A stretch of DNA of 64,000 nucleotides from NCBI GenBank assembly GCA_019308905.1, contig JAFDHF010000002.1:75854-139853 (forward strand), in the 5' to 3' direction. The position numbers were made by a program, and so were the translations under genes. Source of the DNA: Deltaproteobacteria bacterium. Lineage in GTDB: Bacteria > Desulfobacterota > BSN033 > WVXP01. The notes under the pieces are model-generated. The model had not been told where the DNA came from, searched no databases, and worked only from the letters and a program-made list of their open reading frames with translations. The first letter of the stretch is position 1. Every line of letters begins with the position of its first letter. Of this stretch, positions 23,920-37,525 are shown piece by piece.

Positions 23920-25476
23920 TCAATGGACCTTTTTTTCGTAACCCTCCCAATAAGCATCTCTGATAAGCTTTTTGTGGATCTTTCCAGAACCGGTCTTGGG
24001 AAGGGAATCGACCAAATCGACGGATTTCGGGCTCTTGTAGTGGGCGAGATTCTCCTTGCAAAAGGCCACTATCTCCCCCTCGGTGGCGGTTTGTCCTTCC
24101 TTGAGCACGACGACCGCCTTGACCGCCTCGCCCCACTTCTCGTCGGGAACCCCGACAACCGCCGCCTCCAAAACCGCAGGGTGCTGGTAGAGGACATGCT
24201 CCACCTCGGTTGAGTAGACGTTCTCTCCGCCCGTGACAATCATGTCTTTCTTACGATCCACGATCGTGACGTAGCCCTCCTCGTCGATCACGGCCATGTC
24301 CCCGGTGTAGAGCCACCCGTCCCGGATAGCCTTCCGGGTCTCTTCCGGTTGTTTCCAGTACCCGCAGGTGACTATCTCCCCCCGCACGATGATCTCCCCC
24401 ACCTCTTTCTCATCGGGGTTTACCTCGGTGCCGTCCTCCCTCACCACCTTGAGCTCCACGCCGATAAATTCACGGCCGGTTTTGGACTTGTACTTCAACT
24501 GTTCCTCGTATGGGAGCCTCTTCAGGTGGTCCTTCAAGATCGAGAGGGTAAGATAGGGGCTGGTCTCCGTCATGCCGTAAGTCTGGATATAGTCGCACCC
24601 GAAGGTCTCTATGATCCTCCGAACCACATGCGGAGCGATCGGGGCGCCTCCGCTCAAAAGGACTCTCAAGCTACTGCAGTCGTACCGGCCCACGGAGGGA
24701 TCGTTTATCAGGAGGTTGAGGGTGGTGGGTATCATATTGGTGATCGTGACCCTTTCCCTTTCGATGGTCTCGAGAACCCGCCTGGCCTCAAAATGGGGGA
24801 TCATCACGTGGGTCGCCCCCACCCACGTGACCGCCCACGTGGCCCATGCATCGGCGAGATGAAACATGGGAGCCACGTGAATCCAGACATCACTGTCCGT
24901 GAGGTGAAGTTCCCCAATGGTCCCCAGGGCATGGCTCGCCACGTTCCTGTGGCTCAGCATCACCCCCTTGGGCCTGCCCGTGGTCCCGCTGGTGTAATAG
25001 ATCTGTGCCAGATCGTCTCCTTCCAGAGAAACCGGAGGAGGCGGTTCTCCTCCGGAATCGGAAAGGAATTCCTCGTACGACCCCCCCGCTCCGCTGAAAA
25101 GAACCCTCCAGCCCCCAGGCCTTCCGGCCTGGACTTGCTCCACGATCTCGCCGAATTCGGGGGACGCGATGAGAAGCTGGCTCTCGGAGTCATCGAGTAT
25201 GAACGCCACCTCCCTGGGAGAGAGACGATAGTTGACGGGGACCAGCACTGCTCCCGTAATCGCCGTGCCGAAATAGGACTCCAAGAAGACATGACAGTTG
25301 GGGTGGAGGATTGCGACCTTCCCCCCCTTGCCGATACCCAGACGGCCGAGACCGCCCGCGAAACGGTACACCCGGTCTATGAACTCGCCATAGGTAAACC
25401 GCTCTTCCCCACAGACGATCGCCTCCTTCCTGTGGAAGAGCCGCGCCGCCTTGGACAGGGGTTCTCTCAAAACCAT
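23920..25476 (-). CDS. AMP-dependent synthetase/ligase (acyl-CoA synthetase family)
   Basis: AMP-binding motif YTSGTTGRPKGV and a C-terminal GEIxxRG…K motif. 518 aa. Confidence 0.85.
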   Translation of the reverse strand: MVLREPLSKAARLFHRKEAIVCGEERFTYGEFIDRVYRFAGGLGRLGIGKGGKVAILHPNCHVFLESYFGTAITGAVLVPVNYRLSPREVAFILDDSESQLLIASPEFGEIVEQVQAGRPGGWRVLFSGAGGSYEEFLSDSGGEPPPPVSLEGDDLAQIYYTSGTTGRPKGVMLSHRNVASHALGTIGELHLTDSDVWIHVAPMFHLADAWATWAVTWVGATHVMIPHFEARRVLETIERERVTITNMIPTTLNLLINDPSVGRYDCSSLRVLLSGGAPIAPHVVRRIIETFGCDYIQTYGMTETSPYLTLSILKDHLKRLPYEEQLKYKSKTGREFIGVELKVVREDGTEVNPDEKEVGEIIVRGEIVTCGYWKQPEETRKAIRDGWLYTGDMAVIDEEGYVTIVDRKKDMIVTGGENVYSTEVEHVLYQHPAVLEAAVVGVPDEKWGEAVKAVVVLKEGQTATEGEIVAFCKENLAHYKSPKSVDLVDSLPKTGSGKIHKKLIRDAYWEGYEKKVH

Positions 25477-25568
25477 GGACCTCTCCCCTTCAGGAACTCA
25501 CTCCAGGCACGGTGCGCCTGCTCGGACTCCATGGAACACGGGAGACCGCCACAACCGCCGGGAAGCCG

Positions 25569-26867
25569 TCACCCGATCTCTCCGAGCGATTCCTCAAGGA
25601 TTGCAAGTCCACGGTCGAGCTCGTCGTCGGAGATAACCAGGGGCATAAGGGCCCGCATTATGTTCCCGTGGGTTCCCGCGGAGATGGTAATCAATCCCTT
25701 CTCGTAACATTTCTTCACCAACTGGCCCGTCTCCTCCTTTGCCGGCTCCCTGGTGACCCGGTCCCTGACCAGTTCCATGGCCACCATCGCCCCCACCCCT
25801 CGGACATCCCCGATGAGCTCGTAAGTCTCCTCCATTTCCTTGAAACGATCCATCACCTTTCGGCCGACCGTCTCGGCCCGGCCGAGGAGGTCCTCAGCTT
25901 CAAAGGTCTCTATCACCGCAAGCCCGGCACGGCAGGCCAGGGGATTCCCCCCGAAGGTCCCCCCGAGGCCTCCGACATGGGGAGCCTCCATGATCTCGGC
26001 CCTCCCGGTGACCCCGGCGATGGGAAGCCCTCCCCCCAGGGATTTTGCCGTGGTTATGATATCGGGCTCCACCCCGAAATGCTCTATGGCAAACATCCTC
26101 GCGGTCCGGCCGAACCCTGTCTGGACCTCGTCGTCGATATAGAGGATCCCGTTCTGCTCGCAGATCTCCTTGACCTTTCGGTGCCATCCCGCTGGTGGGA
26201 CCACGAACCCGCCTTCCCCGAGAACCGGCTCTGCCAGGACCGCGGCCACATTCTCGGCCGAGATATGGGTGTTGAAGACCTCTTTCAGATAGTCGGCGCA
26301 CCGGAGCTCGCAGGAGGGATACTCGAGGCCGAAAGCGCACCTGTAGCAGTAGGCATAGGGAATCCGATAGACATCAGGCGCATATGGTCCGAACCCGAAC
26401 TTGTACGGCTTGACCTTGCTCGTCAGGGTCATGGCCAGAAGGGTCCGGCCGTGGAAGGCGTCCTCAAAAACGACAATACCGGGCCGCCCGGTTGCATAAC
26501 GGGCGATCTTGACCGCATTCTCCACCGCTTCGGCCCCGCTGTTGACAAACATCGTCTTCTTCGGAAACGCGCCGGGAGTGATCTGGTTCATCTTTCTGGC
26601 AAGTTCCACGTAGGACTCGTACATCACCACATGGAAGCAGGTATGGGTGAATTTCTCGGCTTGATCCTTGACCGCCTCTACCACCCGGGGAGCACAGTGG
26701 CCCACGTTCATCACCCCGATGCCACCTGCAAAATCGATGAATTCCCGACCCTCCACGTCCCTGATGGTCGCGCCCTTTGCCCCGGCCGCAAAGTAAGGCG
26801 TCACGTTGAATGGTCCCCGGGGAACATTCTCCTCCCGCGCTTTCAAGAGATCTTCCGTCTTTGACAT
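25569..26867 (-). CDS. class III (omega-) aminotransferase, GABA / 5-aminovalerate-aminotransferase-like
   Basis: PLP fold type I class III signature (DEVQTGFGRTARMFA). The start was refined to the ATG at 26865-26867, which has a GGAGG ribosome-binding site. Confidence 0.85.
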   Translation of the reverse strand: MSKTEDLLKAREENVPRGPFNVTPYFAAGAKGATIRDVEGREFIDFAGGIGVMNVGHCAPRVVEAVKDQAEKFTHTCFHVVMYESYVELARKMNQITPGAFPKKTMFVNSGAEAVENAVKIARYATGRPGIVVFEDAFHGRTLLAMTLTSKVKPYKFGFGPYAPDVYRIPYAYCYRCAFGLEYPSCELRCADYLKEVFNTHISAENVAAVLAEPVLGEGGFVVPPAGWHRKVKEICEQNGILYIDDEVQTGFGRTARMFAIEHFGVEPDIITTAKSLGGGLPIAGVTGRAEIMEAPHVGGLGGTFGGNPLACRAGLAVIETFEAEDLLGRAETVGRKVMDRFKEMEETYELIGDVRGVGAMVAMELVRDRVTREPAKEETGQLVKKCYEKGLITISAGTHGNIMRALMPLVISDDELDRGLAILEESLGEIG

Positions 26868-26947: not shown

Positions 26948-28696
26948 TCAAGGCGGCACTCCCTCTTCGTCCCAACCCCTCAGTTGATAGTACTCTGCCA
27001 GAAGCCGATCAAAATCCTCTCTCTTGAAAATCCTTCCCTCTTCGATGGGCTCCTCAAAGAAACGCCTCGGCAGGGTATCGTCCTCCCGGGTGAGTCCCTC
27101 CCGGATATTGAAAGCCCGCGTCGCGTCGGCGATGTTGCAGGCGATCCTGCGGAGCTCTTCCTCTTTGAGGTCGAGACCCGTGGTGGCCATGATCACCTCT
27201 CTGAGATCATCCCAAAGGTAGAGATCCCGGAAAAACCGGCAGAAGATCATGGTATCGAAGATATTGAGCCGGTCCTCGTAGTCGACAAAGATCCTTGCCT
27301 TGCCCTCCATCCGATCAGGGGGGCTGATTCCTGCCAGTTCCGGCTTGTAGAAAGTGGTGCGCAGGTGGCATGCGCCGCGGTCCGATGTTGCAAACGCAAG
27401 CCCCATACCCTTGAGAGATCGGGGATCGTATCCTGCCGGTTCCATCCCCTTTACATGAATCGCGAGATCCTCGAGTCCCCACTCTCGACTGGCAAAGCGG
27501 ATTCCTTCGGCCAGAGCCGCGCCGATTCCATCCCGGTTCACAATTCCGTCGAGAAGCCGGGCCACGCCGTCAACATCGCCGTAATCGAGTCTGTCCGGAA
27601 TCCTTCCCCTCAGCGAGGCCTCGATGGCAAAGGCCGCCAGATTTCCCGCGGTGATCGTATCCAGGCCGAGGTTGTCGCAGAGATCGTTGAGATAGGCGAT
27701 CTCTTCGATACGATCGATCATGCAGAGTCCGCCGAAGGCATAGATGGTCTCGTATTCAGGCCCCTCGATCTTGAGTCCCTTGTGGCGCCCCTCCCGGACC
27801 TCAGAGAGCTTTCCGCAGGCCATAAAGCACTTGCTGCATGCCCTGGGCCTGGTGCTGAGTCTCTCCTTCATGGTCTCGGCGGCCAGTCTCTCCCAGTGCT
27901 CGCATCTGCCCTGGCTCCAGTACCGGGACGGAAAGGACGCCACAGGTGTGAGAAGGGCCACCATCATGGGAGTCCCCAGGTTCCTGTAGGCCGCAACACC
28001 CGGGTTGTCCTTTGCCTTGGCCAGTGTCTTCCTGCGGAACTCCTCCACGAGATCTCCATGGGCCAGCTCTCTCTTTGCCTCGCCGTAGAAGACGATCCCC
28101 TTAACCTTCTTGGATCCCATGACAGCCCCCACCCCTGTCCGACCGGCACACCGCCAGTGGTCGTTACCGATGAGGGCGAACCGCACGAGGCTCTCTCCTG
28201 CGGGTCCTATGACAACGGCCTTGGCTCCTCTGGCATCGACTGCCTTCAGGAGAGCATCCTCGGTCTCGTAGGTCCCCTTTCCCCAGAGACCCGAAGCATC
28301 GTGGAACCCCACACCCCTGTCGCTGATCTCCAAGAAGACCGGTTCGGTACTCTTCCCGTAAAGGACAATCGCATCGTAGCCCGCCCTGCTCATGGGCTCC
28401 GCCGTCTTCCCCCCTGAATAGGACTCCGAGTAGAACCCCGTCAGGGGCGACTTGGTAAATACACCGTACCTGCTCGAACCATGAACAGGGGTGTCTGTCA
28501 CGGGTCCCAAGGCAAAGATCAGATTGTTCTCCTCAGAAAAGGGATCCACACCGGGCGGATTCCCCTCGAGGAGCAGGTGGGTGGCAAGCCCCTTGCCCCC
28601 CAGATAACGTGACAAGACCGAATCATCCACGGCATCAGACCTGTAGGTCCGCCGGGAGAGGTCGATATAGAGTATCCTGCCAAAAAAACCCTTCAT
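26948..28696 (-). CDS. tungsten-type aldehyde:ferredoxin oxidoreductase (AOR family)
   Basis: AOR N-terminal domain (MKGFFGRILYIDLS...) and C-terminal domains. Start refined to the ATG at 28694-28696. Confidence 0.85.
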   Translation of the reverse strand: MKGFFGRILYIDLSRRTYRSDAVDDSVLSRYLGGKGLATHLLLEGNPPGVDPFSEENNLIFALGPVTDTPVHGSSRYGVFTKSPLTGFYSESYSGGKTAEPMSRAGYDAIVLYGKSTEPVFLEISDRGVGFHDASGLWGKGTYETEDALLKAVDARGAKAVVIGPAGESLVRFALIGNDHWRCAGRTGVGAVMGSKKVKGIVFYGEAKRELAHGDLVEEFRRKTLAKAKDNPGVAAYRNLGTPMMVALLTPVASFPSRYWSQGRCEHWERLAAETMKERLSTRPRACSKCFMACGKLSEVREGRHKGLKIEGPEYETIYAFGGLCMIDRIEEIAYLNDLCDNLGLDTITAGNLAAFAIEASLRGRIPDRLDYGDVDGVARLLDGIVNRDGIGAALAEGIRFASREWGLEDLAIHVKGMEPAGYDPRSLKGMGLAFATSDRGACHLRTTFYKPELAGISPPDRMEGKARIFVDYEDRLNIFDTMIFCRFFRDLYLWDDLREVIMATTGLDLKEEELRRIACNIADATRAFNIREGLTREDDTLPRRFFEEPIEEGRIFKREDFDRLLAEYYQLRGWDEEGVPP

Positions 28697-29354: not shown

Positions 29355-29885
29355 ATGCGAAAGAAAACAGGAAAAAGACTCGACAAGATCGATTCCAAGA
29401 TCATCGGTCTTTTACAGAAGAACGGGAGACTTCCGAATACACAGATCGCCAAGGAACTCGGCATATCCGAGACTACGGTCAGGAAGCGCCTGGACCGCCT
29501 GATCGAAGAGGAGTTCATACAGGTTGTCGCCGTAGGTAACCCTTTCAAACTGGGATTCGGAATCGTAGGAACGATCAAGATCAGCATAGACATCAAGGAA
29601 GTCGAGAACGTCATAAGAGAGTTACAAAAGCTGCACGAAGTGTGGTACATAGCTGTAACAACAGGGGCCACCGATATCGATATCGAATTCAACACCCGTT
29701 CTCTCGAGGATCTCCATGACCTGGTCTACGAAAAAATCAACAAGATTGACGGTATCATTCGGACAGAAACAATGTTGATCATAAGGTACGCCAAGAGGCG
29801 CTACGACTGGGGTACCGCCTTGGACTACCCGAGGTCTTCGCTATCGAACATGGAGGAAAAGCAAGGAGAGATCCAGATTCCTTGA
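29355..29885 (+). CDS. Lrp/AsnC-family transcriptional regulator
   Basis: HTH_AsnC N-terminus (IDSKIIGLLQKNGRLPNTQIAKELGISETTVRKRL) plus a RAM domain. Confidence 0.85.
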   Translation: MRKKTGKRLDKIDSKIIGLLQKNGRLPNTQIAKELGISETTVRKRLDRLIEEEFIQVVAVGNPFKLGFGIVGTIKISIDIKEVENVIRELQKLHEVWYIAVTTGATDIDIEFNTRSLEDLHDLVYEKINKIDGIIRTETMLIIRYAKRRYDWGTALDYPRSSLSNMEEKQGEIQIP

Positions 29886-29898: not shown

Positions 29899-31974
29899 TC
29901 ACCCGGGCTGGCCAACGGCTTCCATGACGTAGTACCCCTCTTCCTGGAGGGAAATCTCGAAGCGACCAGGAACGAGGATGGTCGTATCCGGCAGGACCAG
30001 TATCGCCGGTCCTGCAACCTTCATACCTGCCATAAGCTTATCGGCGTCATAACAGAGAGTCTCCACGAAATCCTCCTCTCCCTCAAAATAGGCCTGCTGC
30101 CTGCCGATCAAGGCGTCGGACGGAACGCCACCTCCACTGGACCGCCCCTGCAAGGCGATCCTCGGCGTGAGGCTTCTGGCCAGACTTCTCCACATGACAA
30201 ACTCCACATTGGACTGCGGATCGGCCGTCTTGTATCTTGCCAGATGGGCCCTGTGGAAATCTTCGGCCAGGCGAGCCACGACCTCAGGTGTCGCCCTGCT
30301 ACCCTCCAGGGCAACCTCGAGTTCGATGACCTGCATGGGATACCTGGCGGCCGAGTAATACTCGAAAACCCGGGTCTCAGGCGGCGCCCCGAGCCGGTCG
30401 AGGAACGCTCTTCCCTTCTCTTCGAGCTCTCCCAGGATTCTGTTAACCCCCTCGTAGTCGAAATCTCTGCTGGTGGTGTACCTGCTGGCGACGCTGCTCA
30501 AGGCTATATCCGCATTGAGTCCGCCAAAGGCACAGAGCACCGCTGTCTCCTTGGGGATGATAACCCGCTTGACCCCCATCTCCCTGGCAAGACCTGCAGC
30601 AAAAAGCCCTGTCGCGCCTCCACCTGAAACAATAACAAACTCCCTGGGATCGATACCTCGCCTTACCGTCATATCCAGAATGCCGCCCACCATCTTCTCT
30701 CTGGCCACCTGGTAGATGCCCATGGCCGCCTGCCTGACACTCAGACCGAGAGGTGAGGCTATTTTTTCTTCCACCGCCTTCTCTGCCGACTCGGGAGATA
30801 TCGCCATCCTTCCGCCCAGGAAATAACCGGGAATGATGTACCCGAGGGCGACACAGGCATCGGTGACCGTGGGCTCCGTGCCCCCCCTCATGTAGCATGC
30901 AGGACCGGGCACCGCACCGGCGCTCTGCGGACCGACATTGAGTCTGCCTGCCGGGTCCACCCATGCAATACTTCCGCCTCCGGCCCCGAGGGTCAATATT
31001 TCCGTAGCGGATACACCTGTTGGGTAGTTGAGAATCCTTCCATCTCTCGTCGTTGTTATCCGCCCTTCGATCACCGTGCTCACATCGAAGCTTGTCCCCC
31101 CCATATCGATCACGAGGCAATTCTGTTCCTTGTTTTGTTCTGCAAAGTACAGCCCTGCCACAGGCCCCATGGAGGGCCCGGAAAAAAGCATGAACACGGG
31201 TTTTTCCATGATCTCTTCGATCGGCACCAGTCCCCCGCTCGACACAACGATCAGAGGATCCCCTCTGAAGCCCTTTTCGGATAAGGTATCCCGAAGCCTC
31301 TTCAAATACTCCGTGACGACGGGTTGAACCATACAGTTGAGAACAGTGCAGGACATGCGGTGGTATTCGCGGATAATCGGCTGGACCTCGCAGCTGAGGC
31401 TGTAGGACACGCTCGGCCACTCTTCCCGGATTATCTCACCGATCCGTCGTTCGTGCCGGGGATTGACTATGGACCACAACAGGCAGACTGCTATGGTTTT
31501 CACATCCCACTTCTTGAACTGAGCTACAGCCCGTCTGACCTCATCCTCACTAAGAGGAACGAGTACCTTCCCCTCTTTGTTCATCCTTTCGGTCACTTCC
31601 AGGCAGAGATACGGCCGGACCAGAGGCTCGGGAGGGGAAACCTTGTAATCGAATATGTTCAGGCGACGGCCCTCTCCACGCCAGAGAACGTATTTGGTTC
31701 CCCTACTACAGATGACCCCGCACTTGACGCCCTTCCTCTCGAGAATGGCATTGGTCGCCGTGGTGGAGCCGTGGATGAACACATCGGTTTTGCTTAGGAG
31801 ACCTTCGAGGCCGACCCCCAACCCCTTGCCGGCCAGTGTCAAGCAGTCCAGGACTCCCCGGGTGAGATCCTCCGGAGTGGTCGGTGCCTTATGCCTTCCC
31901 AACAAGACCTCGTCATCCGCTACCGCGAGATCGGTGAAAGTCCCGCCCACATCCACACTGATTCTATATCCCAC
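29899..31974 (-). CDS. hyuA: hydantoinase/oxoprolinase family protein, A (beta) subunit
   Basis: Hydantoinase_A N-terminus (RISVDVGGTFTDLAV) and ASKHA-fold ATPase. GTG start. Confidence 0.85.
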   Translation of the reverse strand: MGYRISVDVGGTFTDLAVADDEVLLGRHKAPTTPEDLTRGVLDCLTLAGKGLGVGLEGLLSKTDVFIHGSTTATNAILERKGVKCGVICSRGTKYVLWRGEGRRLNIFDYKVSPPEPLVRPYLCLEVTERMNKEGKVLVPLSEDEVRRAVAQFKKWDVKTIAVCLLWSIVNPRHERRIGEIIREEWPSVSYSLSCEVQPIIREYHRMSCTVLNCMVQPVVTEYLKRLRDTLSEKGFRGDPLIVVSSGGLVPIEEIMEKPVFMLFSGPSMGPVAGLYFAEQNKEQNCLVIDMGGTSFDVSTVIEGRITTTRDGRILNYPTGVSATEILTLGAGGGSIAWVDPAGRLNVGPQSAGAVPGPACYMRGGTEPTVTDACVALGYIIPGYFLGGRMAISPESAEKAVEEKIASPLGLSVRQAAMGIYQVAREKMVGGILDMTVRRGIDPREFVIVSGGGATGLFAAGLAREMGVKRVIIPKETAVLCAFGGLNADIALSSVASRYTTSRDFDYEGVNRILGELEEKGRAFLDRLGAPPETRVFEYYSAARYPMQVIELEVALEGSRATPEVVARLAEDFHRAHLARYKTADPQSNVEFVMWRSLARSLTPRIALQGRSSGGGVPSDALIGRQQAYFEGEEDFVETLCYDADKLMAGMKVAGPAILVLPDTTILVPGRFEISLQEEGYYVMEAVGQPG

Positions 31975-31977
31975 CTC

Positions 31978-33861
31978 TCATTTCCCCTCGGCTTCTCTCT
32001 TGGCCTGTTCCCGGAGTTTCTCGGTGGCCGCGTAGTCGACCTCGAACAACTCTGGCTCTGTATTGATGACCACCTTGTAGATGTCCCTCGCGGCCTCAAG
32101 GGAGACGAAGCCGTCTCTCACATCGGCCCGGACCGCCTCCGGGTCCCGCTCCGCGGGATCGCCGTAACCGCCCCCCCCGCTGGTCACGGCCACCCACTCC
32201 TCATCAGGGCCGACAGTCGCGTTGCCTGCGCTGGAAAGATGCCTCAACCTTTTCCCGGTGTGATGGTCGACGATCCAATGATCATCCGAAGAACCGGCAA
32301 GGCCCCCGTAAAGCCCGAAGGGCCTGTTCGTGTACCCGGTCGCGGCATATATGAGGAGCATCTCGTGGTTCACCGGTTGAATCCTCTGGCCCACAGACAC
32401 CCCGCCCCTCCATTTGCCTGGGCCCCCGGAGTCCCTTGCGGCACTGATCTCCCAGACTATGTTCGGTACCGCCAGCTCAAAGGTCTCTATGAATTCATAC
32501 CCCATATTGCCCATAATACACGGGGCAAACATGTGGGGCAGCCCGTCGAAGCCCTCTGTTGCCCCGCCCGCGGCAGCCGCCAGATAGTACTGATGTCCAT
32601 AAGGCTCACCGGTCGACGGATCGACTCCAGAGGCATCGAGATTGGCGACGGAAAACTCGCCCATACCGGCAATGGCACGGTCCGGCAGGATCTTTGACCA
32701 CGTCTTGAACACGAGATTCGTGATGGTGTCGCAAAAACCGGTGGTGGCTATACTGGTTGCGGCCGGCCATCGCGGTATCCCTGCTATCGAACCTTCTCTC
32801 AGCAGGACCTCTATGTGATCCATGACCCCGTCATTGAGGGGGAGGCTGGGATCGAGTACGGGAAGCGTACCTTGAATGGCCGAACACCTCGCCGTCGCAT
32901 AGGTCAAGTTATAGGAACACTCAAGCTGATCGGGCATCTCTCTGTAGTCAAAAGTGATCACACCCCTGTCCGGGTCAATGGATAGTTTCATTCTAAGGTT
33001 GACCCCTTCCGGGCAGAACTCCTCGATTTTCTCACTGATCATCTCTTCTTCCACGGTCACCTTGGGAAATTTCCTGATTTCCTCCCTCATCTTCCTGTCG
33101 CCGTACCTCAGGGTCTCTTCGAAACACCCTTTCACGGTATCGTAGCCGAACCGGTCGCAGAGTTCTATGACCCTGTTCTCGGCGACCCACAGAGACCCGG
33201 TCTGGGCAAGGAAATCTCCGTACCACTGTCTTGAATACCGGAAGTTGTAACCGATAAAGCGAATCAGGTCCGGAATTATCTCATGGTTGCGGCACAGTCT
33301 CACACCAGGGAAATGCATCCCCTCTTGGTAGATCTCCTTGGCATAGACATCGCCTGTCGTGGGCAACGGGCACCCTATGTCGATCAGGTGGCACTTGTTG
33401 ACCGCCCAGACAACGAATTTTCCCTTGTAGAAGATAGGAGCAAACATCGTCCAATCGCCGACGTGTGCATTGCCGGCAAAAGAGGCGTTATTGACGAAAA
33501 CATCCCCCTCATGAATGTCGTCTCCAAAAGACCTTATGACCCATCTCAAGGCGGGACTCAGGGTTCCCACGTGCACGGGGAGGCAGTCGAACATGAACAG
33601 GACCTTTGCCCTTGCATTCAGTAAAGTGCACGTAAAATCCTTCGCGCCGTAGAGAATCGGATTCCGCGCAGTAGCGAGAATCGTCTCGGTCATCTCGCTC
33701 ATGATCCCTTCGGCTCTTGCCACGACCACCGAAAAGGTGATCGGGTCGACCTCCGCATCTCCGGTCTCCAGCGCACCGGGTATGCCTTGTATCTCCCCTT
33801 CTTCGATCTCGCTGGTTATCTTTTCGACAGCATACGGCGGAAAATCTATGGTCTGTTGCAT
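31978..33861 (-). CDS. hyuB: hydantoinase B / oxoprolinase family protein (alpha subunit)
   Basis: Hydantoinase_B homology over the full length. Its stop lies 3 nt from the hyuA start, forming an operon. Confidence 0.85.
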   Translation of the reverse strand: MQQTIDFPPYAVEKITSEIEEGEIQGIPGALETGDAEVDPITFSVVVARAEGIMSEMTETILATARNPILYGAKDFTCTLLNARAKVLFMFDCLPVHVGTLSPALRWVIRSFGDDIHEGDVFVNNASFAGNAHVGDWTMFAPIFYKGKFVVWAVNKCHLIDIGCPLPTTGDVYAKEIYQEGMHFPGVRLCRNHEIIPDLIRFIGYNFRYSRQWYGDFLAQTGSLWVAENRVIELCDRFGYDTVKGCFEETLRYGDRKMREEIRKFPKVTVEEEMISEKIEEFCPEGVNLRMKLSIDPDRGVITFDYREMPDQLECSYNLTYATARCSAIQGTLPVLDPSLPLNDGVMDHIEVLLREGSIAGIPRWPAATSIATTGFCDTITNLVFKTWSKILPDRAIAGMGEFSVANLDASGVDPSTGEPYGHQYYLAAAAGGATEGFDGLPHMFAPCIMGNMGYEFIETFELAVPNIVWEISAARDSGGPGKWRGGVSVGQRIQPVNHEMLLIYAATGYTNRPFGLYGGLAGSSDDHWIVDHHTGKRLRHLSSAGNATVGPDEEWVAVTSGGGGYGDPAERDPEAVRADVRDGFVSLEAARDIYKVVINTEPELFEVDYAATEKLREQAKREAEGK

Positions 33862-34041: not shown

Positions 34042-35229
34042 CTAGGTGAGATCCTCCTTCTTGGTGGCCTGGACCTTCATCTCCCTCTTTGCCAGTTCTC
34101 GGAAAAAGTACTTTGGGTCGATTGCTCCTTCCGGGCCCCACACGCCCGGTCGGACCCTTCCTTCCGATTGCATCCGGGCCGTGATGGAAGGCGGTACACC
34201 CGTTGACACTTCTCCGCAAGAAAAACCCCATCGGCTGTGGGTTCTGATGATGCAGTCGATCACGTATTCCGTCCTTTTCCCGTCCTTGTTGCCGATCACC
34301 TGGGCCCGAAGACACTCCATATCGTTGAGTGCAAGCTCCACACCCGCCATCTTCTCTTTGACATGCCTGTCGACCACGGCAGCCAGCACCTCGATGGGAG
34401 TCACCTTGGCACCGCCCACCTCGACCGGCTCCTTGCTCGCGAAACCGAGGGAGGCCAGGAACTGGGCCTTCTGTTCGAATTCAGCCGGGAGGCTCAACCG
34501 CCAGGTAACCTCCTTGATCCCTTTGTCTCCAAATGAAGCGGGGATAGTGGCCGGCTCGGAGTGAAGGGTATGGATGCAGGTCCGCCGTCCGATGGGCTCC
34601 GGGAAGTCGATCTCCATGGCCCCGGACATGGGTGGAAGTGTCCTGTACTCCCCGTCGATGAACTCCACGCAGTCATCGGAGTACTCCTCCATGATCGTCC
34701 TGATCGAGTACGGCGGTACAAAGGCTTCCACTCCTTTGGTGTCGGTCATATCGATACTCGCGTCGCTCAGGCGGACGATTTCCACCGTATCGAGCTGGTC
34801 GTAGCCGTACCGGGCCAGAACGTTGGTGATCCCCGGAGCTCCTCCGATCCCCAGAACGGCCGTGAGCCCGGCCTTCTCGAAATCGTCGAAAAGCTCCAGC
34901 TGCCGCCGTGTTGTATGGAACATCCCTCCGAGATCGTTGTAATGGCAGCCACCCTTGAGGCAGGCCTTCATGACGTTCAGGTTGACATAGTACTGGGCTG
35001 CATTGATCACGGCGTCATATCCCTTGAGCAGTTCCGCCGTTTCGTCGACTCTGTACGCATCGACGAAGGCTCCCTTGATACGGGAATCCCCCATCGAGGC
35101 CGCTGCCTCTTCCGCCTTTTGACCCTGATAATCCGCAAGGAGAATCTCCTCTACCCCGGCATTCTCGCTCAGATCCCTCACTATGGTCCGTGCCATGGCT
35201 CCTGCCCCGCCAACGACTGCGACTCTCAT
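34042..35229 (-). CDS. saccharopine dehydrogenase family NAD(P)-binding protein
   Basis: Rossmann N-terminus (MRVAVVGGAGAMARTIV) and a saccharopine-dehydrogenase C-terminal domain. Start at the ATG 35227-35229, which has a GGAGG ribosome-binding site. Confidence 0.8.
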   Translation of the reverse strand: MRVAVVGGAGAMARTIVRDLSENAGVEEILLADYQGQKAEEAAASMGDSRIKGAFVDAYRVDETAELLKGYDAVINAAQYYVNLNVMKACLKGGCHYNDLGGMFHTTRRQLELFDDFEKAGLTAVLGIGGAPGITNVLARYGYDQLDTVEIVRLSDASIDMTDTKGVEAFVPPYSIRTIMEEYSDDCVEFIDGEYRTLPPMSGAMEIDFPEPIGRRTCIHTLHSEPATIPASFGDKGIKEVTWRLSLPAEFEQKAQFLASLGFASKEPVEVGGAKVTPIEVLAAVVDRHVKEKMAGVELALNDMECLRAQVIGNKDGKRTEYVIDCIIRTHSRWGFSCGEVSTGVPPSITARMQSEGRVRPGVWGPEGAIDPKYFFRELAKREMKVQATKKEDLT

Positions 35230-35312: not shown

Positions 35313-37181
35313 CTATCTTACCGGCTTCCCGTGCTTCAGGTCCGGATATCCATGGATGTCCCTGACAATCTCCTCGAGCCCGAGAGATCTCAATTTATCC
35401 GGAACCGGCCTCCCTTCATCATCCCATTGCCTCAGCTCGTAGTACCGCTCGAGCATCTCTTGAAGCGGAACGACCTGGCCCCGACAGGGCCCATCGGGCA
35501 GAGGGGTTTTCAGGAATCGATCAGGGAGAGTATCGTCCTTGGACGTGATTCCCTCCCTGACATCGAAAGCCCGTTCGACGGCGACTATCCTCTCTCCGAT
35601 CCTCAAGAGCTGGGGGAAGCTCATCCTCTTCCCGGTTACTGCATTCACCAGTTTCGTAAGGAATCGATCGTAGTAACCGCCTATGTCGCTGAGAAAATGA
35701 CAGACACCAAGGCTGTCTTCGACCGCCCGCAACTCCTCCATGTATTTGACCAAATCGGCTTTGCCTTCCACCCTTGTCCTCTCTTCGATCCCGGCATAGG
35801 GTTCCATGTAGACACCCACCTTGTTATGGGCCCCTCCAACGGTTGAAACCGCCGTGCCGAGAGCCCATGCATTGAGGCCTCTCAACTCGACCATGACGAG
35901 TTCAAGACCCTTGACGTGCATTGCGAAATTCCTGGTCTCTTCGCCCCACTCCTCGGAGAGTCTCTTTGTCCCCCTTGATAGAAGATCGCCGATCCCTTGC
36001 CGGCGGGCGACTCTCCCTATCAGGGAAAGAACCGCCTCTTCGTCGCCCCAGGTCAGATCAATCTCCTCCACATCCTGCTTTTGGAGGATTCCTTTCTCGT
36101 GGCATTCCATGACAAAGGAGAGGGTGGCTCCGAGGGATATCTCATCGAGACCGTATCTGTTGCACTCCGTGTGAATCTTCAACATTGCTGCCGGGTCCGG
36201 AATGTCGAGACCGGATCCGAACTGACCGGTCACGGTGAGCTGAGGAGCCTCGCCGAAGGAGTTTCTGTACCTCCCTTTTCTGACCACGAAAGAATGGCTG
36301 CAGGCCGTCATGCAGGTGCCGCAGGCTTTGCTCTTGATCCAGTTCTGTCTTTCGAAGATCTCACCTCTCAATCTGTGGACCTTCCTGTATACTCCTGTTT
36401 GGAAATTCTTTGTCTCCAATACACCGGCCCTGCTGTAGTTCTCCGTCTCACCGATCGTCCCTTTTCTCAGGAGGCTCTCGAGGTAGTCGGTCCGTGAGAA
36501 AAGATTCTCCGCCCGCCGAACGAGGTCGAGAAGTCTGCCGTGATTCGCCACATGGACCGACCGTCCGCTTCGCACTGCAACGGCCTTCAACCCCTTGGAA
36601 CCCATGACTGCTCCAAGGCCTCCACGACCGGCCGCCCTGTTCATGTCACCTATTATGTTGGCGTAGCTCACCAGATTCTCGCCCGCTTGGCCGATCGCCG
36701 CTATTCGAACATAGGGATCCCCCAATTCCGTCCGGATGATATTGTTCGTCTCCCATACGTCCTTTCCCCAAAGATGCCCCGCCTCCCTCAATTCGATACA
36801 CCCGTCACTGATATGCAAATACACGGGTTCCTTCGAAGCGCCCTTGAGAACGAGTAGATCGACCCCGGCTCTTCGCAGCTCTATCCCAAAAAAGCCCTTT
36901 GCCGTCCCCAGGGCGATGATTCCGGTGAGGGGAGATTTCGATCCCACGTTCCAAACGCACGAACTCGGCACCAGGGTGCCGACAAGCGGGCCTACTCCGA
37001 AAGCGAGCACGTTGCCAGGCGCGAGGGGATCGATTTCGGGACCTACGAGGCGATAGAGGGTGTGGGAGATCAATCCACGACCCCCCAGGAATCTCTCCAT
37101 TGAACCCTCGGGAAGGGATGTCCTGCTGATCTGTGAGGCCCCGAGATCGACTGTGACCTGAGTTCCCGTCCATCGGGCCAT
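35313..37181 (-). CDS. tungsten-type aldehyde:ferredoxin oxidoreductase (second AOR paralog)
   Basis: AOR N-terminal and C-terminal domains. Start refined to the ATG at 37179-37181. Confidence 0.85.
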   Translation of the reverse strand: MARWTGTQVTVDLGASQISRTSLPEGSMERFLGGRGLISHTLYRLVGPEIDPLAPGNVLAFGVGPLVGTLVPSSCVWNVGSKSPLTGIIALGTAKGFFGIELRRAGVDLLVLKGASKEPVYLHISDGCIELREAGHLWGKDVWETNNIIRTELGDPYVRIAAIGQAGENLVSYANIIGDMNRAAGRGGLGAVMGSKGLKAVAVRSGRSVHVANHGRLLDLVRRAENLFSRTDYLESLLRKGTIGETENYSRAGVLETKNFQTGVYRKVHRLRGEIFERQNWIKSKACGTCMTACSHSFVVRKGRYRNSFGEAPQLTVTGQFGSGLDIPDPAAMLKIHTECNRYGLDEISLGATLSFVMECHEKGILQKQDVEEIDLTWGDEEAVLSLIGRVARRQGIGDLLSRGTKRLSEEWGEETRNFAMHVKGLELVMVELRGLNAWALGTAVSTVGGAHNKVGVYMEPYAGIEERTRVEGKADLVKYMEELRAVEDSLGVCHFLSDIGGYYDRFLTKLVNAVTGKRMSFPQLLRIGERIVAVERAFDVREGITSKDDTLPDRFLKTPLPDGPCRGQVVPLQEMLERYYELRQWDDEGRPVPDKLRSLGLEEIVRDIHGYPDLKHGKPVR

Positions 37182-37201
37182 GATTGGATGTCTCTTTCCC
37201 G

Positions 37202-37525
37202 CTAGAGTTTTGTCTTTCCACCAACGAGAGGAGCCGTGATCACACCCAGCCCCCTCTCCTTTAGACACACCCCTGCCTCACCCACGTCCATGAACTCGAT
37301 CGCACGGGCAGGACAGAGGCGAGTGCATTCGCCGCAGGCATTGCAGCCGACCTTGATCACCGGTATGTTGACGTCGAGCTTTTCGTCACTGAGAATGAGT
37401 ATGAATGCATCCTCTCTTTCGAGATTTTTCACGGCAGAGCAAACGATCTCGCAGACCCGGCACCCACTGCATCGATCCAAGTGGACCAAAAGCGTCTTGT
37501 CCTGGATGAGTACATTCCTGTTCAT
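37202..37525 (-). CDS. 2x[4Fe-4S] ferredoxin (AOR-associated electron carrier)
   Basis: Two CxxCxxCxxxCP clusters (CSGCRVCEIVC and CNACGECTRLCP). It lies directly upstream of the AOR gene. Confidence 0.8.
   Translation of the reverse strand: MNRNVLIQDKTLLVHLDRCSGCRVCEIVCSAVKNLEREDAFILILSDEKLDVNIPVIKVGCNACGECTRLCPARAIEFMDVGEAGVCLKERGLGVITAPLVGGKTKL

What the first reader, a model, noticed from the sequence alone, without database searches (positions are those of the whole stretch)
23920..37525. Probable lactam / omega-amino-acid catabolic module built from a HyuA/HyuB pair, aminotransferase, two tungsten AORs, ferredoxin, aldehyde dehydrogenase, CoA ligase and saccharopine-dehydrogenase-like gene under Lrp
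ATP-dependent HyuA/HyuB-type enzymes open lactams such as 5-oxoproline, delta-valerolactam and caprolactam to omega-amino acids. A class III aminotransferase then yields an oxo-acid. The aldehyde group is oxidised here by AOR with a ferredoxin (an anaerobic solution) or by the nearby NAD-dependent aldehyde dehydrogenase at 18660-20153, and the acid is activated by the AMP-forming ligase. This parallels the aerobic caprolactam and valerolactam pathways, but with tungsten AORs substituted. The saccharopine-dehydrogenase-family gene and Lrp regulator point to lysine-derived substrates.
Basis: inference. Interest (0 to 1): 0.5.

Follow-up and report, generated by a model that had tools for sequence, protein, structure and literature searches.

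The report
Anaerobic cyclic-amide and polyamine-type amine breakdown genes

Summary
The region is not one operon.

- **Unit 1:** fdx-AOR2-SacDH-like-HyuB-HyuA, with a strong promoter-like site at 37599-37571.
- **Unit 2:** AOR1, a GABA-type aminotransferase and an acyl-CoA ligase, ending in a terminator-like hairpin at 23834-23799.
- **Regulator:** the Lrp/AsnC gene lies between the units on the other strand.
- **ALDH:** the gene at 18660-20153 belongs to a separate unit.

HyuAB is an intact member of the ATP-dependent hydantoinase/oxoprolinase family, with ATP motifs and metal tetrad conserved. It forms its own clade. It is not a caprolactamase, N-methylhydantoinase or carboxylase orthologue.

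HyuBA orthologues recur with orthologues of the SacDH-like gene, a Liv-type ABC importer and an Lrp. The SacDH-like protein is structurally closest to carboxyspermidine dehydrogenases. In bacteria and haloarchaea its homologues sit next to an aldehyde-oxidising enzyme (AOR or ALDH), usually with polyamine transporters. One locus encodes a putrescine aminotransferase fused to an AOR.

The pathway logic (cyclic amide, then amine, then aldehyde, then acid, with AOR replacing ALDH) is supported. The lysine link is not; a polyamine link is favoured. The substrate is unknown. This is a new variant of a known kind, of moderate interest.

The parts
37571..37599 (-). Promoter-like site (TTGACA-17-TAGAAT, 11 of 12) upstream of the ferredoxin gene. 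Probable start of unit 1.
   Evidence: consensus match only
37202..37525 (-). Small 2x[4Fe-4S]-type ferredoxin, 107 aa. First gene of unit 1 and the presumed electron acceptor of AOR2.
   Evidence: Fer4 family hits; two CxxCxxC-type cysteine motifs visible in the translation
35313..37181 (-). AOR2, an aldehyde:ferredoxin oxidoreductase family protein of 622 aa starting at MARWTG. It is a lineage-specific paralogue, 32% identical to AOR1.
   Evidence: AFOR_N and AFOR_C; best solved relative 1AOR at 403 bits, aligned from residue 6; no homologue above 42% identity; AOR1 versus AOR2
34042..35229 (-). Saccharopine-dehydrogenase-family oxidoreductase that is carboxyspermidine-dehydrogenase-like, 395 aa. 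The proposed reaction is NAD(P)-dependent oxidation of a C-N bond of an omega- or secondary amine, releasing an aldehyde.
   Evidence: Pfam; PDB sequence hits with 8DEB best; AF2 model at pLDDT 96 with Foldseek top hits CASDH at TM 0.82-0.86; gene contexts
31978..33861 (-). HyuB, the metal-binding hydrolytic subunit of an ATP-dependent hydantoinase/oxoprolinase-family enzyme, 627 aa.
   Evidence: PF02538; CapB metal tetrad conserved as D75/H133/D136/H158, with 32% identity to CapB
29899..31974 (-). HyuA, the ATP-binding (ASKHA) subunit, 691 aa. Its start lies 3 bp after the hyuB stop.
   Evidence: Pfam; motifs DVGGTFTD, DMGGTSFD and GAVPGP in the translation compared; separate clade in the tree
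29355..29885 (+). Lrp/AsnC-family regulator, convergent with hyuA and divergent from AOR1.
   Evidence: 45% identical orthologue beside the HyuBA-SacDH-Liv cluster in L107; Lrp/AsnC also beside the SacDH-like clusters of haloarchaeal plasmids
26948..28696 (-). AOR1, an aldehyde:ferredoxin oxidoreductase family protein and first gene of unit 2.
   Evidence: 55% identical orthologue next to the aminotransferase orthologue in L006
25569..26867 (-). Class-III omega-aminotransferase of the GABA/5-aminovalerate transaminase type.
   Evidence: TIGR00700 at 557.5 against a cut-off of 506.65; orthologues next to AORs in L006 (56%) and L026 (67%)
23920..25476 (-). AMP-forming acyl-CoA ligase, last gene of unit 2. 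Substrate not inferable.
   Evidence: ligase homologues at 28-30% identity also lie beside the SacDH-HyuBA clusters L030 and L031
23799..23834 (-). Terminator-like hairpin (14 pairs plus a T-run) after the ligase. Marks the end of unit 2.
   Evidence: consensus match only
38007..42810 (+). Liv/HAAT-type ABC importer (binding protein, two ATPases, two permeases), divergent from unit 1. Probable uptake system for the HyuAB substrate. The binding protein resembles urea/amide binders only weakly.
   Evidence: 58-76% identical orthologues directly upstream of hyuBA in L003; Liv-type transporters beside hyuBA in L004, L021, L023, L107 and L108
42755..48567 (+). Block of C-N hydrolases downstream of the importer: two polysaccharide-deacetylase-fold proteins, an ArgE/DapE deacylase, an M24 (DoeA-like) hydrolase and an agmatine-deiminase-like protein. 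They possibly trim acyl or guanidino groups. Membership of the module is inferred only.
   Evidence: a deacetylase-fold homologue lies beside hyuBA in L003
48846..52443 (+). Amino-acid-type permease, a Metallophos protein and an unknown 280-aa protein. The same trio precedes hyuB-hyuA-SacDH-Liv in L107.
   Evidence: 28%, 43% and 38% identity

Best explanation
The locus is an anaerobic catabolic island for small nitrogen compounds. It joins two aldehyde-generating amine modules to AOR-family aldehyde oxidoreductases.

**Unit 1 (fdx-AOR2-SacDH-like-HyuB-HyuA, with the divergent Liv-type importer).**
1. An imported neutral cyclic amide (a lactam or a related ring) is opened by HyuAB at the cost of ATP. 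This step is inferred from family chemistry.
2. The amine that is freed is oxidised at its C-N bond by the carboxyspermidine-dehydrogenase-like NAD(P) enzyme, giving an aldehyde. This is inferred from the chemistry shared by all characterised members of that fold, and from the fact that this gene is next to an aldehyde oxidiser in nearly every context read.
3. AOR2 oxidises the aldehyde to the acid and passes the electrons to the co-encoded ferredoxin.

**Unit 2 (AOR1-aminotransferase-ligase).**
1. An omega-amino compound of GABA, 5-aminovalerate or diamine type is transaminated to an aldehyde.
2. AOR1 oxidises the aldehyde.
3. The ligase activates the acid as a CoA thioester.

**Regulation and substrates.** The Lrp/AsnC regulator between the units probably controls them. 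The compounds handled are most likely polyamine-related (putrescine or spermidine derivatives and their lactams) rather than lysine-derived.

**Shown here:** gene identities, intact catalytic motifs, unit boundaries at the level of consensus signals, and the conserved gene associations.

**Inferred:** every reaction step, the substrate, and the order of HyuAB and the dehydrogenase.
For: **HyuAB**
- ATP-binding motifs and the Asp-His-Asp-His metal site are intact.
- The carboxylases are distant (223-332 bits, against 436 for CapA) and form the outgroup.

**HyuBA with the SacDH-like gene**
- SacDH orthologues (56-66% identity) lie next to HyuBA orthologues (61-81%) in L001, L021, L022 and L107 as well as in the window. 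That is 5 of 10 independent orthologue loci, against 2 of 94 paralogue loci (Fisher p = 5e-5).
- The two paralogue exceptions, L030 and L031, belong to a neighbouring group in the NJ tree. They carry 2-3 SacDH-like genes plus a ligase and a Liv transporter.

**SacDH-like gene with an aldehyde oxidiser**
- AOR: window, L024, L025 and L111.
- ALDH: L109, L111, L112 and L113. An alcohol dehydrogenase sits beside it in L110.

**Polyamine context**
- Pot-type ABC transporters in L024, L025, L109, L111 and L112.
- Agmatinase in L025 (TIGR01230, 181 against a cut-off of 174).
- Putrescine aminotransferase in L025 (NF008570, 639.5 against a cut-off of 612).
- A spermidine-synthase-like gene in L025 and a histone-deacetylase-family fragment in L021.
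- An agmatine-deiminase-like gene in the window.
- Fold: the AF2 model (pLDDT 96) is closest to carboxyspermidine dehydrogenases (TM 0.82-0.86), then to L-lysine 6-dehydrogenase and saccharopine reductases.

**Aminotransferase to AOR**
- Orthologous AT-AOR1 pair in L006, beside another HyuBA pair.
- AT orthologue followed by an AOR and a ferredoxin in L026.
- A single 1055-aa aminotransferase-AOR fusion in L025.

**Regulator**
- Lrp orthologue in L107, and Lrp/AsnC genes in L109 and L111.

**Unit boundaries:**
Against: - No experiment or expression data bears on any step, and the substrate is unknown.
- HyuBA orthologues also occur without the SacDH-like gene. They are found with an amidohydrolase plus a CN-hydrolase (L003), with DAO-type flavoproteins (L004, L108), and inside a Liv operon in aerobic Sinorhizobium and Pseudomonas.
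- SacDH orthologues at 73-74% identity occur without HyuBA within 10 kb (L024, L025). The coupling is therefore facultative.
- AOR2 has no orthologue elsewhere. L001, L022 and L107 have no AOR or aminotransferase nearby.
- Units 1 and 2 could serve different substrates.
- Promoter and terminator calls are consensus matches only.
- No known polyamine-derived lactam has been shown to be a bacterial growth substrate under anoxic conditions (own knowledge).
- The deacylase and deiminase genes could belong to an unrelated pathway.
Confidence: 0.5

Rival explanations
1. A lysine-derived lactam (delta-valerolactam or caprolactam type) is opened by a caprolactamase-like HyuAB to 5-aminovalerate or 6-aminocaproate. 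This is transaminated, the semialdehyde is oxidised by an AOR or the ALDH, and the dicarboxylate is activated by the ligase. The SacDH-family gene marks lysine metabolism.
For: - The best curated family for both subunits is caprolactamase (NF050156 at 592 bits, NF050157 at 312 bits).
- 6YRA is the best solved relative.
- The GABA/5-aminovalerate-type aminotransferase, an AOR and a ligase lie in one unit.
- A ligase makes more sense for glutarate or adipate than for succinate (inference).
Against: - Both scores are far below the equivalog cut-off of 1000.
- Identity to CapB is 32%, only 2 of 15 pocket residues are kept, and the lactamase-specific vicinal Cys-Cys is lost.
- HyuA falls in a separate clade in the tree.
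- No lysine-pathway gene was seen among the window genes scanned.
- The SacDH-family protein groups with carboxyspermidine dehydrogenases and sits in polyamine contexts.
- The ALDH is in another transcription unit.
Confidence: 0.15
2. A hydantoin or ureide route. HyuAB is an N-methylhydantoinase-like or 5-substituted-hydantoin-opening enzyme, for example in creatinine or another cyclic ureide pathway. Its N-carbamoyl product is cleaved by a carbamoylase or amidase. The resulting secondary amine (sarcosine-like) is split by the SacDH-like enzyme, and the aldehyde goes to the AOR.
For: - HyuA scores almost the same against the fused N-methylhydantoinase 7HK5 (422 bits) as against CapA (436 bits).
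- L003 has an amidohydrolase upstream and a CN-hydrolase downstream of hyuBA.
- The window has PuuE-like deacetylase-fold proteins and M20, M24 and deiminase-like hydrolases.
- L024 has an allantoate-amidohydrolase/carbamoylase-type M20.
- Methylamine methyltransferases lie nearby.
Against: - HyuB is clearly nearer to CapB (249 bits) than to the N-methylhydantoinase (170 bits).
- The window's M20 is an ArgE/DapE deacylase, not a carbamoylase.
- The M24 protein resembles ectoine hydrolase rather than creatinase, and only weakly.
- All deacetylase-fold scores are far below the PuuE cut-off.
- The L003 amidohydrolase scores best as Xaa-Pro dipeptidase.
- No carbamoylase or creatinine deaminase orthologue accompanies hyuBA in the window, L001, L022 or L107.
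Confidence: 0.12
3. No common pathway. The region is a juxtaposition of independent units: a HyuBA-SacDH-Liv cassette of unknown role, an orphan AOR with its ferredoxin, and a generic GABA/omega-amine aminotransferase-AOR-ligase operon. They are assembled by rearrangement and only look like a pathway.
For: - There are at least two transcription units, with an opposed regulator gene between them.
- AOR2 is unique to this genome.
- The gene order differs from L107, which has the same cassette without an AOR or aminotransferase.
- The aminotransferase-AOR pair occurs elsewhere without SacDH.
Against: Independent recurrence of the same combinations with non-orthologous parts:
- HyuBA paralogue with the AT-AOR1 orthologues in L006.
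- SacDH with an AOR and an aminotransferase in L024, L025 and L026.
- SacDH with an AOR and an ALDH in a haloarchaeon, L111.

Recruitment of unrelated AOR lineages to the same neighbours argues for function, not chance.
Confidence: 0.18
4. HyuAB is an ATP-dependent carboxylase (acetone or acetophenone carboxylase type) acting on a carbonyl compound produced by the dehydrogenase or aminotransferase.
For: - Same superfamily, and the metal site is shared with the carboxylases.
- Caprolactamase itself needs bicarbonate (abstract; Table 2).
Against: - The lowest scores are to Acx and Apc subunits, which are the outgroups in the tree.
- No gamma or epsilon subunit gene was found in the ORF and family scans of the region.
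- HyuB (627 aa) is shorter than the carboxylase subunits (684 and 776 aa), whose long C-terminal arms bind the gamma subunit.
Confidence: 0.03

Closest known systems
Caprolactam and valerolactam pathway of Pseudomonas (CapAB in P. jessenii, OplBA in P. putida, followed by an omega-aminotransferase and an aldehyde dehydrogenase; PMC8453981, PMC6061476, PMC11033972)
   Same: - A two-subunit ATP-dependent ring-opening enzyme encoded in the order B then A.
- ATP motifs and the Asp-His-Asp-His metal site are conserved.
- It is followed by omega-amine removal and aldehyde oxidation.
- It is the best-scoring curated family and the best solved structure.
   Different: - Only 32% identity to CapB, and NCBIfam scores at 31-59% of the cut-off.
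- The hydrophobic pocket is largely replaced, and the vicinal disulfide is absent.
- HyuA sits in a separate clade.
- The context is anaerobic, with AOR plus ferredoxin in place of NAD-dependent ALDH.
- A carboxyspermidine-dehydrogenase-like enzyme is added.
- The importer is of Liv type.
N-methylpyrrolidone pathway of Alicycliphilus sp. BQ1 (nmpAB hydantoinase-type amidohydrolase, nmpC amino-acid oxidase, nmpF succinate-semialdehyde dehydrogenase). The genes are listed in PMC6987047. The pathway details from Solis-Gonzalez et al. 2018 are recalled from memory, because that paper was not readable here.
   Same: The logic is the same: HyuAB-type opening of an N-substituted lactam gives a secondary amine, oxidative C-N cleavage gives an aldehyde, and the aldehyde is oxidised to the acid. 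HyuBA orthologues in L004 and L108 have DAO-type flavoproteins where this locus has the SacDH-like gene.
   Different: That pathway uses an O2-dependent flavin oxidase and an NAD-dependent ALDH. Here an NAD(P) dehydrogenase of the saccharopine/carboxyspermidine dehydrogenase fold and an AOR are used. Sequence relatedness to NmpAB was not tested, because no sequence was available.
Carboxyspermidine dehydrogenase (CASDH: B. fragilis 8DEB, H. pylori 8H4Z and 8H52) and relatives (L-lysine 6-dehydrogenase 3ABI, saccharopine reductase, homospermidine synthase)
   Same: - Same fold (TM 0.82-0.86 to CASDH).
- Same Pfam domains.
- The expected chemistry is shared: NAD(P)-linked interconversion of an amine plus an aldehyde with a C-N bond.
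   Different: - Only 20-24% identity to CASDH.
- NF043000 scores 60 bits against a cut-off of 800.
- No carboxyspermidine decarboxylase gene lies nearby.
- The neighbours are catabolic (aldehyde oxidisers, importers, aminotransferases), which suggests the oxidative direction.
Anaerobic indoleacetate pathway of Aromatoleum and Azoarcus (the hydantoinase-like IaaCE is proposed to open the 2-oxindole lactam; cited in PMC8453981)
   Same: It is a precedent for an ATP-dependent HyuAB-type lactam opening in an anaerobic degradation pathway.
   Different: The substrate class is different (aromatic). No SacDH-like gene or AOR link has been described for it. Relatedness was not tested here.
Putrescine aminotransferase route (PatA/YgjG then PatD aminobutyraldehyde dehydrogenase, then GabT and GabD) of E. 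coli (own knowledge)
   Same: The sequence amine, aldehyde, acid, second transamination and second aldehyde oxidation matches aminotransferase plus AOR1 and, possibly, AOR2.
   Different: The aldehyde oxidation uses ferredoxin-linked AORs. In L025 the aminotransferase is fused to the AOR.

Membership tests
ATP-dependent hydantoinase/oxoprolinase superfamily (HyuA/HyuB type) | A subunit with ASKHA ATP-binding motifs (DxGGTxTD, DxGGT, GxxPGP) and the Pfam domains Hydant_A_N, Hydantoinase_A and Hydant_A_C | tested here: met
   Pfam E values of 4e-81, 2e-43 and 3e-11. DVGGTFTD, DMGGTSFD and GAVPGP are present in the translation and match the motifs listed.
ATP-dependent hydantoinase/oxoprolinase superfamily (HyuA/HyuB type) | [quoted passage not shown] | tested here: met
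   D75, H133, D136 and H158 align with CapB D41, H99, D102 and H124.
Caprolactamase / valerolactamase (CapAB, OplAB) equivalog | Score at or above the curated NCBIfam equivalog cut-off for both subunits | tested here: not met
   NF050156 scores 591.9 and NF050157 scores 312.2, each against a cut-off of 1000.
Caprolactamase / valerolactamase (CapAB, OplAB) equivalog | Hydrophobic CapB pocket with the vicinal Cys410-Cys411 disulfide, which is conserved in the lactamases but not in hydantoinases, oxoprolinases or carboxylases | tested here: not met
   Two of 15 pocket positions are identical, and Cys-Cys is replaced by Cys-Ile. This rests on a pairwise HMMER alignment.
Caprolactamase / valerolactamase (CapAB, OplAB) equivalog | ATP- and bicarbonate-dependent hydrolysis of a lactam | not testable with these tools
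   This needs an enzyme assay.
Acetone / acetophenone carboxylase | Closest similarity to the Acx or Apc subunits, additional gamma (or epsilon) subunit genes, and an extended B-type subunit | tested here: not met
   Scores are 223-332 bits for the A subunit and 94-136 bits for the B subunit, against 436 and 249 for CapAB. The carboxylases are the outgroup in the NJ tree. No extra small-subunit gene lies between 29.9 and 37.5 kb.
N-methylhydantoinase (ATP-hydrolysing) | Orthology to the characterised enzyme (PDB 7HK5 / 9H03, fused A-B protein) | tested here: inconclusive
   The A part scores 422 bits, nearly equal to CapA. The B part scores 170 bits, clearly lower than CapB. The enzyme sits on a separate branch in the tree.
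Aldehyde:ferredoxin oxidoreductase family (AOR proper) | AFOR_N and AFOR_C domains, the [4Fe-4S] Cys motif, and closest similarity to AOR rather than to BamB, GAPOR, FOR or WOR5 | tested here: met
   Domains. CxxCxxxC is present in both proteins (RACSKCFMAC and KACGTCMTAC). The best solved relatives are 9MQX and 1AOR at 381-403 bits, against 174-222 bits for BamB.
Aldehyde:ferredoxin oxidoreductase family (AOR proper) | Tungsten (rather than molybdenum) in the pterin cofactor | not testable with these tools
   The metal cannot be read from sequence. No tungstate transporter gene was seen among the window genes scanned.
Carboxy(nor)spermidine dehydrogenase | Score at or above the NCBIfam equivalog cut-off, and pairing with a carboxyspermidine decarboxylase gene | tested here: not met
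   NF043000 scores 60 bits against a cut-off of 800. No decarboxylase lies in the window's neighbourhood or in the related loci read.
Saccharopine dehydrogenase / reductase of lysine metabolism | Closest similarity to LYS9/AASS-type enzymes and a lysine-pathway context | tested here: not met
   Saccharopine reductases rank below CASDH and LysDH in both sequence and fold. No lysine genes lie nearby.
4-aminobutyrate (omega-amino acid) transaminase | Score above the curated equivalog cut-off | tested here: met
   TIGR00700 scores 557.5 against 506.65. Other GABA-transaminase models score below their own cut-offs. The models do not separate GABA from 5-aminovalerate as substrate (own knowledge).

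The most novel reading that the evidence does not exclude
The saccharopine/carboxyspermidine-dehydrogenase-like protein defines an uncharacterised, oxygen-independent, NAD(P)-dependent route for cleaving polyamine-type secondary or terminal amines into an amine plus an aldehyde. The route would be used by both bacteria and haloarchaea, always paired with an aldehyde oxidiser (AOR in anaerobes, ALDH in aerobes).

In this lineage the route would be coupled to an ATP-dependent HyuAB lactamase of a new clade that opens polyamine-derived lactams. Examples are 2-pyrrolidone or N-(3-aminopropyl)- and N-(3-acetamidopropyl)-pyrrolidin-2-one, opened to GABA or isoputreanine-type products. That would explain the deacylases, the amide-type importer, both AORs and the GABA-type aminotransferase in one scheme.
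Probability: 0.3. Interest if true: 0.7.

Novelty: new variant of a known kind. Interest (0 to 1): 0.48.

Why it matters
Known bacterial polyamine breakdown relies on gamma-glutamylation, acetylation, aminotransferases, or O2- or heme/FAD-dependent oxidases and dehydrogenases. How strict anaerobes cleave the internal C-N bonds of polyamines, and how they open very stable 5-7-membered lactams, is essentially undescribed. The paper searches found nothing on either point.

The conserved trio HyuBA, CASDH-like dehydrogenase and aldehyde oxidiser gives concrete, clonable candidates for both steps. The aminotransferase-AOR fusion is direct genomic evidence that AOR-family enzymes serve amine catabolism in mesophilic anaerobes.

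ATP-dependent lactamases are also of biotechnological interest for nylon-monomer and lactam hydrolysis (PMC11033972, PMC11879879). A new clade with a different pocket widens the enzyme panel.

Tried and rejected
- **Exact look-up of HyuA:** not on record.
- **Genome-collection scan with the single HyuA protein:** it used poorly conserved peptides and returned only 37-40% paralogues, mostly Binatia.
- **Metagenome scan with an orthologue alignment:** These served as a background set, not as orthologue contexts.
- **Literature searches:** searches for hydantoinase with saccharopine dehydrogenase and AOR, for agropinic acid with hydantoinase, for AOR with putrescine, and for CASDH in catabolism found nothing relevant. 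The NMP pathway paper PMC5734037 is not held.
- **Opine-lactam idea:** this is the AgaFG/AgaE scheme of Ti plasmids, recalled from memory. It could not be tested, because Agrobacterium plasmid hits were not examined individually. It remains a sub-variant of the 'N-substituted lactam' idea.
- **Binding protein of the importer:** the best solved relative, 3H5L, carries only a generic 'putative branched-chain amino acid ABC transporter' name in the table, with no ligand information. It gives no clue to the substrate.
- **Ligase:** only generic acyl-CoA synthetase relatives were found.
- **Repeat search for regulator sites in the two intergenic regions:** only short two-copy matches, not interpretable.
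- **Rfam:** no riboswitch or RNA element within 23.9-38 kb.
- **Creatinase reading of the M24 gene:** rejected, because it is nearer to ectoine hydrolase, and only weakly.
- **BamB (benzoyl-CoA reductase) reading of the AORs:** rejected.

Full report
**1. Source and gene map**

The window comes from an uncultured Deltaproteobacteria/Desulfobacterota-type genome. HyuA, the SacDH-like protein and AOR2 are 100% identical to proteins recorded for a 'MAG: Deltaproteobacteria bacterium'. Two of them lie on a 168-kb contig.

ORF listing and Pfam/NCBIfam scans confirm every gene in the finding. On the minus strand the order is:

- ferredoxin, 37202-37525
- AOR2, 35313-37181
- saccharopine-dehydrogenase-family gene, 34042-35229
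- hyuB, 31978-33861
- hyuA, 29899-31974
- AOR1, 26948-28696
- class-III aminotransferase, 25569-26867
- AMP-forming ligase, 23920-25476

The Lrp/AsnC gene (29355-29885) is on the plus strand. It is convergent with hyuA and divergent from AOR1.

**2. Transcription units**

These rest on consensus matches only.

- An 11/12 sigma-70-like site lies at 37599-37571, just before the ferredoxin gene.
- A 14-pair hairpin with a T-run lies at 23834-23799, just after the ligase.
- Another 11/12 promoter-like site lies at 23699-23672, before the next gene, a secreted alpha/beta hydrolase.
- A cobalamin riboswitch at 18443-18633 sits between the ALDH and the cob genes.

The ALDH at 18660-20153 follows the hydrolase and a large Ig-like protein. 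It is therefore not in the same unit as the module. No Rfam element lies inside 23.9-38 kb.

**3. What HyuAB is**

- HyuA keeps the three ATP-binding motifs listed for the family.
- HyuB keeps the Asp-His-Asp-His metal tetrad that is essential in caprolactamase (D75, H133, D136, H158).
- Caprolactamase is the best curated family, but the scores (592 and 312) are far below the equivalog cut-off of 1000.
- Against solved structures, HyuA scores 436 bits to CapA, 422 to a fused N-methylhydantoinase (7HK5), 332 to acetophenone carboxylase and 223 to acetone carboxylase. HyuB scores 249, 170, 136 and 94 in the same order.
- HyuB is 32% identical to CapB.
- Of the 15 residues that line the hydrophobic CapB pocket, two are kept. 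The vicinal Cys410-Cys411 disulfide is replaced by Cys-Ile. The authors of the caprolactamase paper found that disulfide only in the lactamases.
- I built a neighbour-joining tree of 111 HyuA-type sequences, without bootstrap. The reference sequences were rebuilt from the HMMER alignments. The tree puts the window's protein in its own clade, apart from the CapA and N-methylhydantoinase branches. The carboxylases are the outgroups.

HyuAB is therefore an intact member of the hydrolytic part of the family, but not a member of any characterised subfamily. Its substrate cannot be read from homology.

**4. What travels with HyuBA**

I read ten independent loci with HyuA orthologues at 59-73% identity.

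- *SacDH-like gene.* Orthologues at 56-66% identity are adjacent or in the same cluster in five loci: the window, L001, L021, L022 and L107. L022 appears to hold nothing but hyuB-hyuA-SacDH. Among 94 loci with more distant HyuA paralogues, a SacDH-like gene appears in two (Fisher p = 5e-5). Those two, L030 and L031, belong to a neighbouring group in the tree. They carry two or three SacDH-like genes, a ligase and a Liv-type transporter around hyuBA.
- *Liv-type ABC importer.* It lies beside hyuBA in the window, L003, L004, L021, L023, L107 and L108. The L003 importer is orthologous to the window's (58-76% identity).
- *L107.* This locus is the most telling. An Lrp/AsnC gene (45% identical to the window's) faces an amino-acid-type permease, a Metallophos protein (43%), small unknown ORFs, an unknown protein (38%), hyuB (66%), hyuA (61%), SacDH (56%) and the Liv transporter. 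This is the same gene set as window 29.3-52.4 kb, in another order.
- *Other partners.* These are an amidohydrolase and a CN-hydrolase (L003), and DAO-type flavoproteins (L004, L108). The flavoprotein after hyuA in L020 scores best as a carotenoid ketolase/desaturase-type protein.

**5. What the SacDH-like protein is**

- *Sequence.* Its best solved relatives are carboxyspermidine dehydrogenases (8DEB, 98 bits). L-lysine dehydrogenase (3ABI) scores far lower, at 43 bits.
- *Fold.* The AlphaFold model built on 42 homologues has pLDDT 96. Its best Foldseek matches are carboxyspermidine dehydrogenases from B. fragilis and H. pylori (TM 0.82-0.86, 20-24% identity). Next come L-lysine 6-dehydrogenase, then saccharopine dehydrogenases and reductases, then homospermidine synthase.
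- *Chemistry.* All of these enzymes interconvert an amine plus an aldehyde with a C-N bond, using NAD(P) (established knowledge).
- *Membership.* It is not a carboxyspermidine dehydrogenase. It scores 60 bits against a cut-off of 800, and no decarboxylase partner was seen.

Its neighbours elsewhere are strikingly consistent.

| Locus | Identity to the window's protein | Neighbours |
|---|---|---|
| L024 | 74% | Pot-type ABC transporter, carbamoylase-type M20, SacDH-like followed by an AOR, a class-III aminotransferase |
| L025 | 73% | Pot-type transporter, ALDH, spermidine-synthase-like gene, SacDH-like, a 1055-aa fusion of putrescine aminotransferase (NF008570, 639.5 vs 612) with an AOR, a polyferredoxin, an agmatinase (TIGR01230, 181 vs 174) |
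| L026 | 61% | an orthologue of the window's aminotransferase (67%), an AOR, a ferredoxin, a TRAP transporter |
| Haladaptatus salinisoli plasmid (L109) | 31-37% | arginine-deiminase-family gene, Lrp/AsnC, polyamine ABC transporter, two ALDHs, SacDH-like |
| Natribaculum luteum plasmid (L111) | 31-37% | as L109, but with an AOR plus an ALDH before the SacDH-like gene and a CoA-acylating malonate-semialdehyde-type dehydrogenase after it |
| Pararhizobium gei (L112) | 31-37% | polyamine transporter, ALDH, SacDH-like |
| Terrarubrum (L113) | 31-37% | SacDH-like followed by an ALDH |
| Acidisoma (L110) | 31-37% | alcohol dehydrogenase, SacDH-like, Pot-like transporter |

An aldehyde-oxidising enzyme is thus the constant companion of this gene. 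The AORs involved are not orthologous to each other (31-38% identity). That argues for repeated functional recruitment.

**6. The AORs and unit 2**

- Both AORs belong to the AOR group proper. Their best relatives are 1AOR and 9MQX, and BamB is far lower. Both keep the CxxCxxxC cluster motif.
- They are 32% identical to each other.
- AOR2 has no homologue above 42% identity in 5.8 billion proteins.
- AOR1 and the aminotransferase have 55-56% identical orthologues side by side in a Desulforhopalus MAG. There they are divergent from a regulator and another hyuBA pair of a neighbouring group (L006).
- Together with the L025 fusion, this makes the chain aminotransferase, aldehyde, AOR the best-supported step of the whole scheme.
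- The ligase is a generic acyl-CoA synthetase.

**7. Interpretation**

Three points change.

1. The SacDH-family gene is not a marker of lysine metabolism. It is probably a working step, the NAD(P)-dependent release of an aldehyde from the amine. It is the gene most tightly linked to hyuBA.
2. The recurring company points to polyamine-type compounds. This company consists of polyamine transporters, agmatinase, putrescine aminotransferase, an agmatine-deiminase-like gene, deacylases and the carboxyspermidine-dehydrogenase fold.
3. The module is larger than stated, because it includes the importer and the downstream genes. It is also more fragmented, with at least two units, a separate ALDH, and an AOR2 specific to this genome.

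The substrate of HyuAB remains open.

**8. Novelty**

ATP-dependent lactam-opening pathways are known in aerobes (caprolactam, valerolactam, N-methylpyrrolidone). One anaerobic case has been proposed (indoleacetate).

I found no description of three things in the searchable literature:

- a HyuAB clade coupled to a carboxyspermidine-dehydrogenase-like enzyme;
- that enzyme family in catabolism;
- aminotransferase-AOR coupling in polyamine breakdown.

I rate the finding a new variant of a known kind, of moderate interest. The higher-interest reading is an oxygen-independent polyamine-cleaving dehydrogenase family, coupled here to a polyamine-lactam hydrolase. It is not excluded, and I put it at about 30%.

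Noticed in passing
window 54743-56230 and 56255-57700 (in-frame TAG at 55724-55726 and 57320-57322): Trimethylamine (mttB) and dimethylamine (mtbB) methyltransferase genes each carry an in-frame amber codon. A PYLIS element starts at each TAG (RF02510 at 81.7 bits, RF02509 at 82.6 bits). Read-through of the mttB TAG gives a full-length MttB. So this deltaproteobacterial genome appears to use pyrrolysine. A corrinoid protein (57747-58427) and a second, uninterrupted MttB-family gene (58469-59953) follow.
   Followed up: partly
window 11319-11493 (+) and 18443-18633 (-): Two cobalamin riboswitches. One precedes a TonB-dependent receptor (11727-13838). The other precedes the cobT-cobD/cbiB-cbiZ-cobS salvage genes (14199-18323).
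   Followed up: no
window 1152-11236: A CoxMSL-type molybdenum hydroxylase (FAD subunit 4695-5597, 2Fe-2S subunit 5558-6067, Mo subunit 6064-8391) and a DUF169 protein are embedded inside an Opp/Dpp-type ABC transporter operon. This may be an N-heterocycle or other hydroxylation system. Such enzymes can make lactam-type products, but no link to hyuAB was tested.
   Followed up: no
L025 11426-14593: A single 1055-aa ORF fuses a putrescine aminotransferase (NF008570, 639.5 against a cut-off of 612) to an AOR-family domain. A polyferredoxin and an agmatinase follow. This fusion links amine transamination to ferredoxin-dependent aldehyde oxidation.
   Followed up: partly
window 35313-37181: AOR2 has no homologue above 42% identity among 5.8 billion clustered proteins, apart from its own entry. 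It is an unusually isolated AOR lineage. The public gene call (595 aa) starts 27 residues later than the start supported by the alignment to 1AOR.
   Followed up: partly
L109 (Haladaptatus salinisoli plasmid) and L111 (Natribaculum luteum plasmid): Haloarchaeal megaplasmids carry the cluster arginine-deiminase-family gene, Lrp/AsnC, polyamine ABC transporter, (AOR and/or ALDH), SacDH-like gene and, in L111, a CoA-acylating semialdehyde dehydrogenase. This is a cultured, annotated system in which the proposed polyamine-cleaving role of the SacDH-like family could be tested genetically.
   Followed up: partly
window 48846-53155 and L107 2132-6593: A permease, a Metallophos phosphoesterase-like protein and a conserved protein without any Pfam hit (window 51601-52443) recur next to the HyuBA-SacDH-Liv genes in two distant genomes. 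Their role is unknown.
   Followed up: partly
window 53417-54718: A second class-III aminotransferase scores above the cut-off of the guanitoxin transaminase model GntE (550.5 against 525) and near the glutamate-1-semialdehyde aminomutase models. It lies just upstream of the methylamine methyltransferase genes.
   Followed up: no
L004 / L005 610-3201: A PxpABC-type 5-oxoprolinase gene set (LamB_YcsF, CT_C_D, CT_A_B) lies about 5 kb from a hyuBA orthologue. This suggests that hyuBA of this clade is not the cell's 5-oxoprolinase.
   Followed up: no
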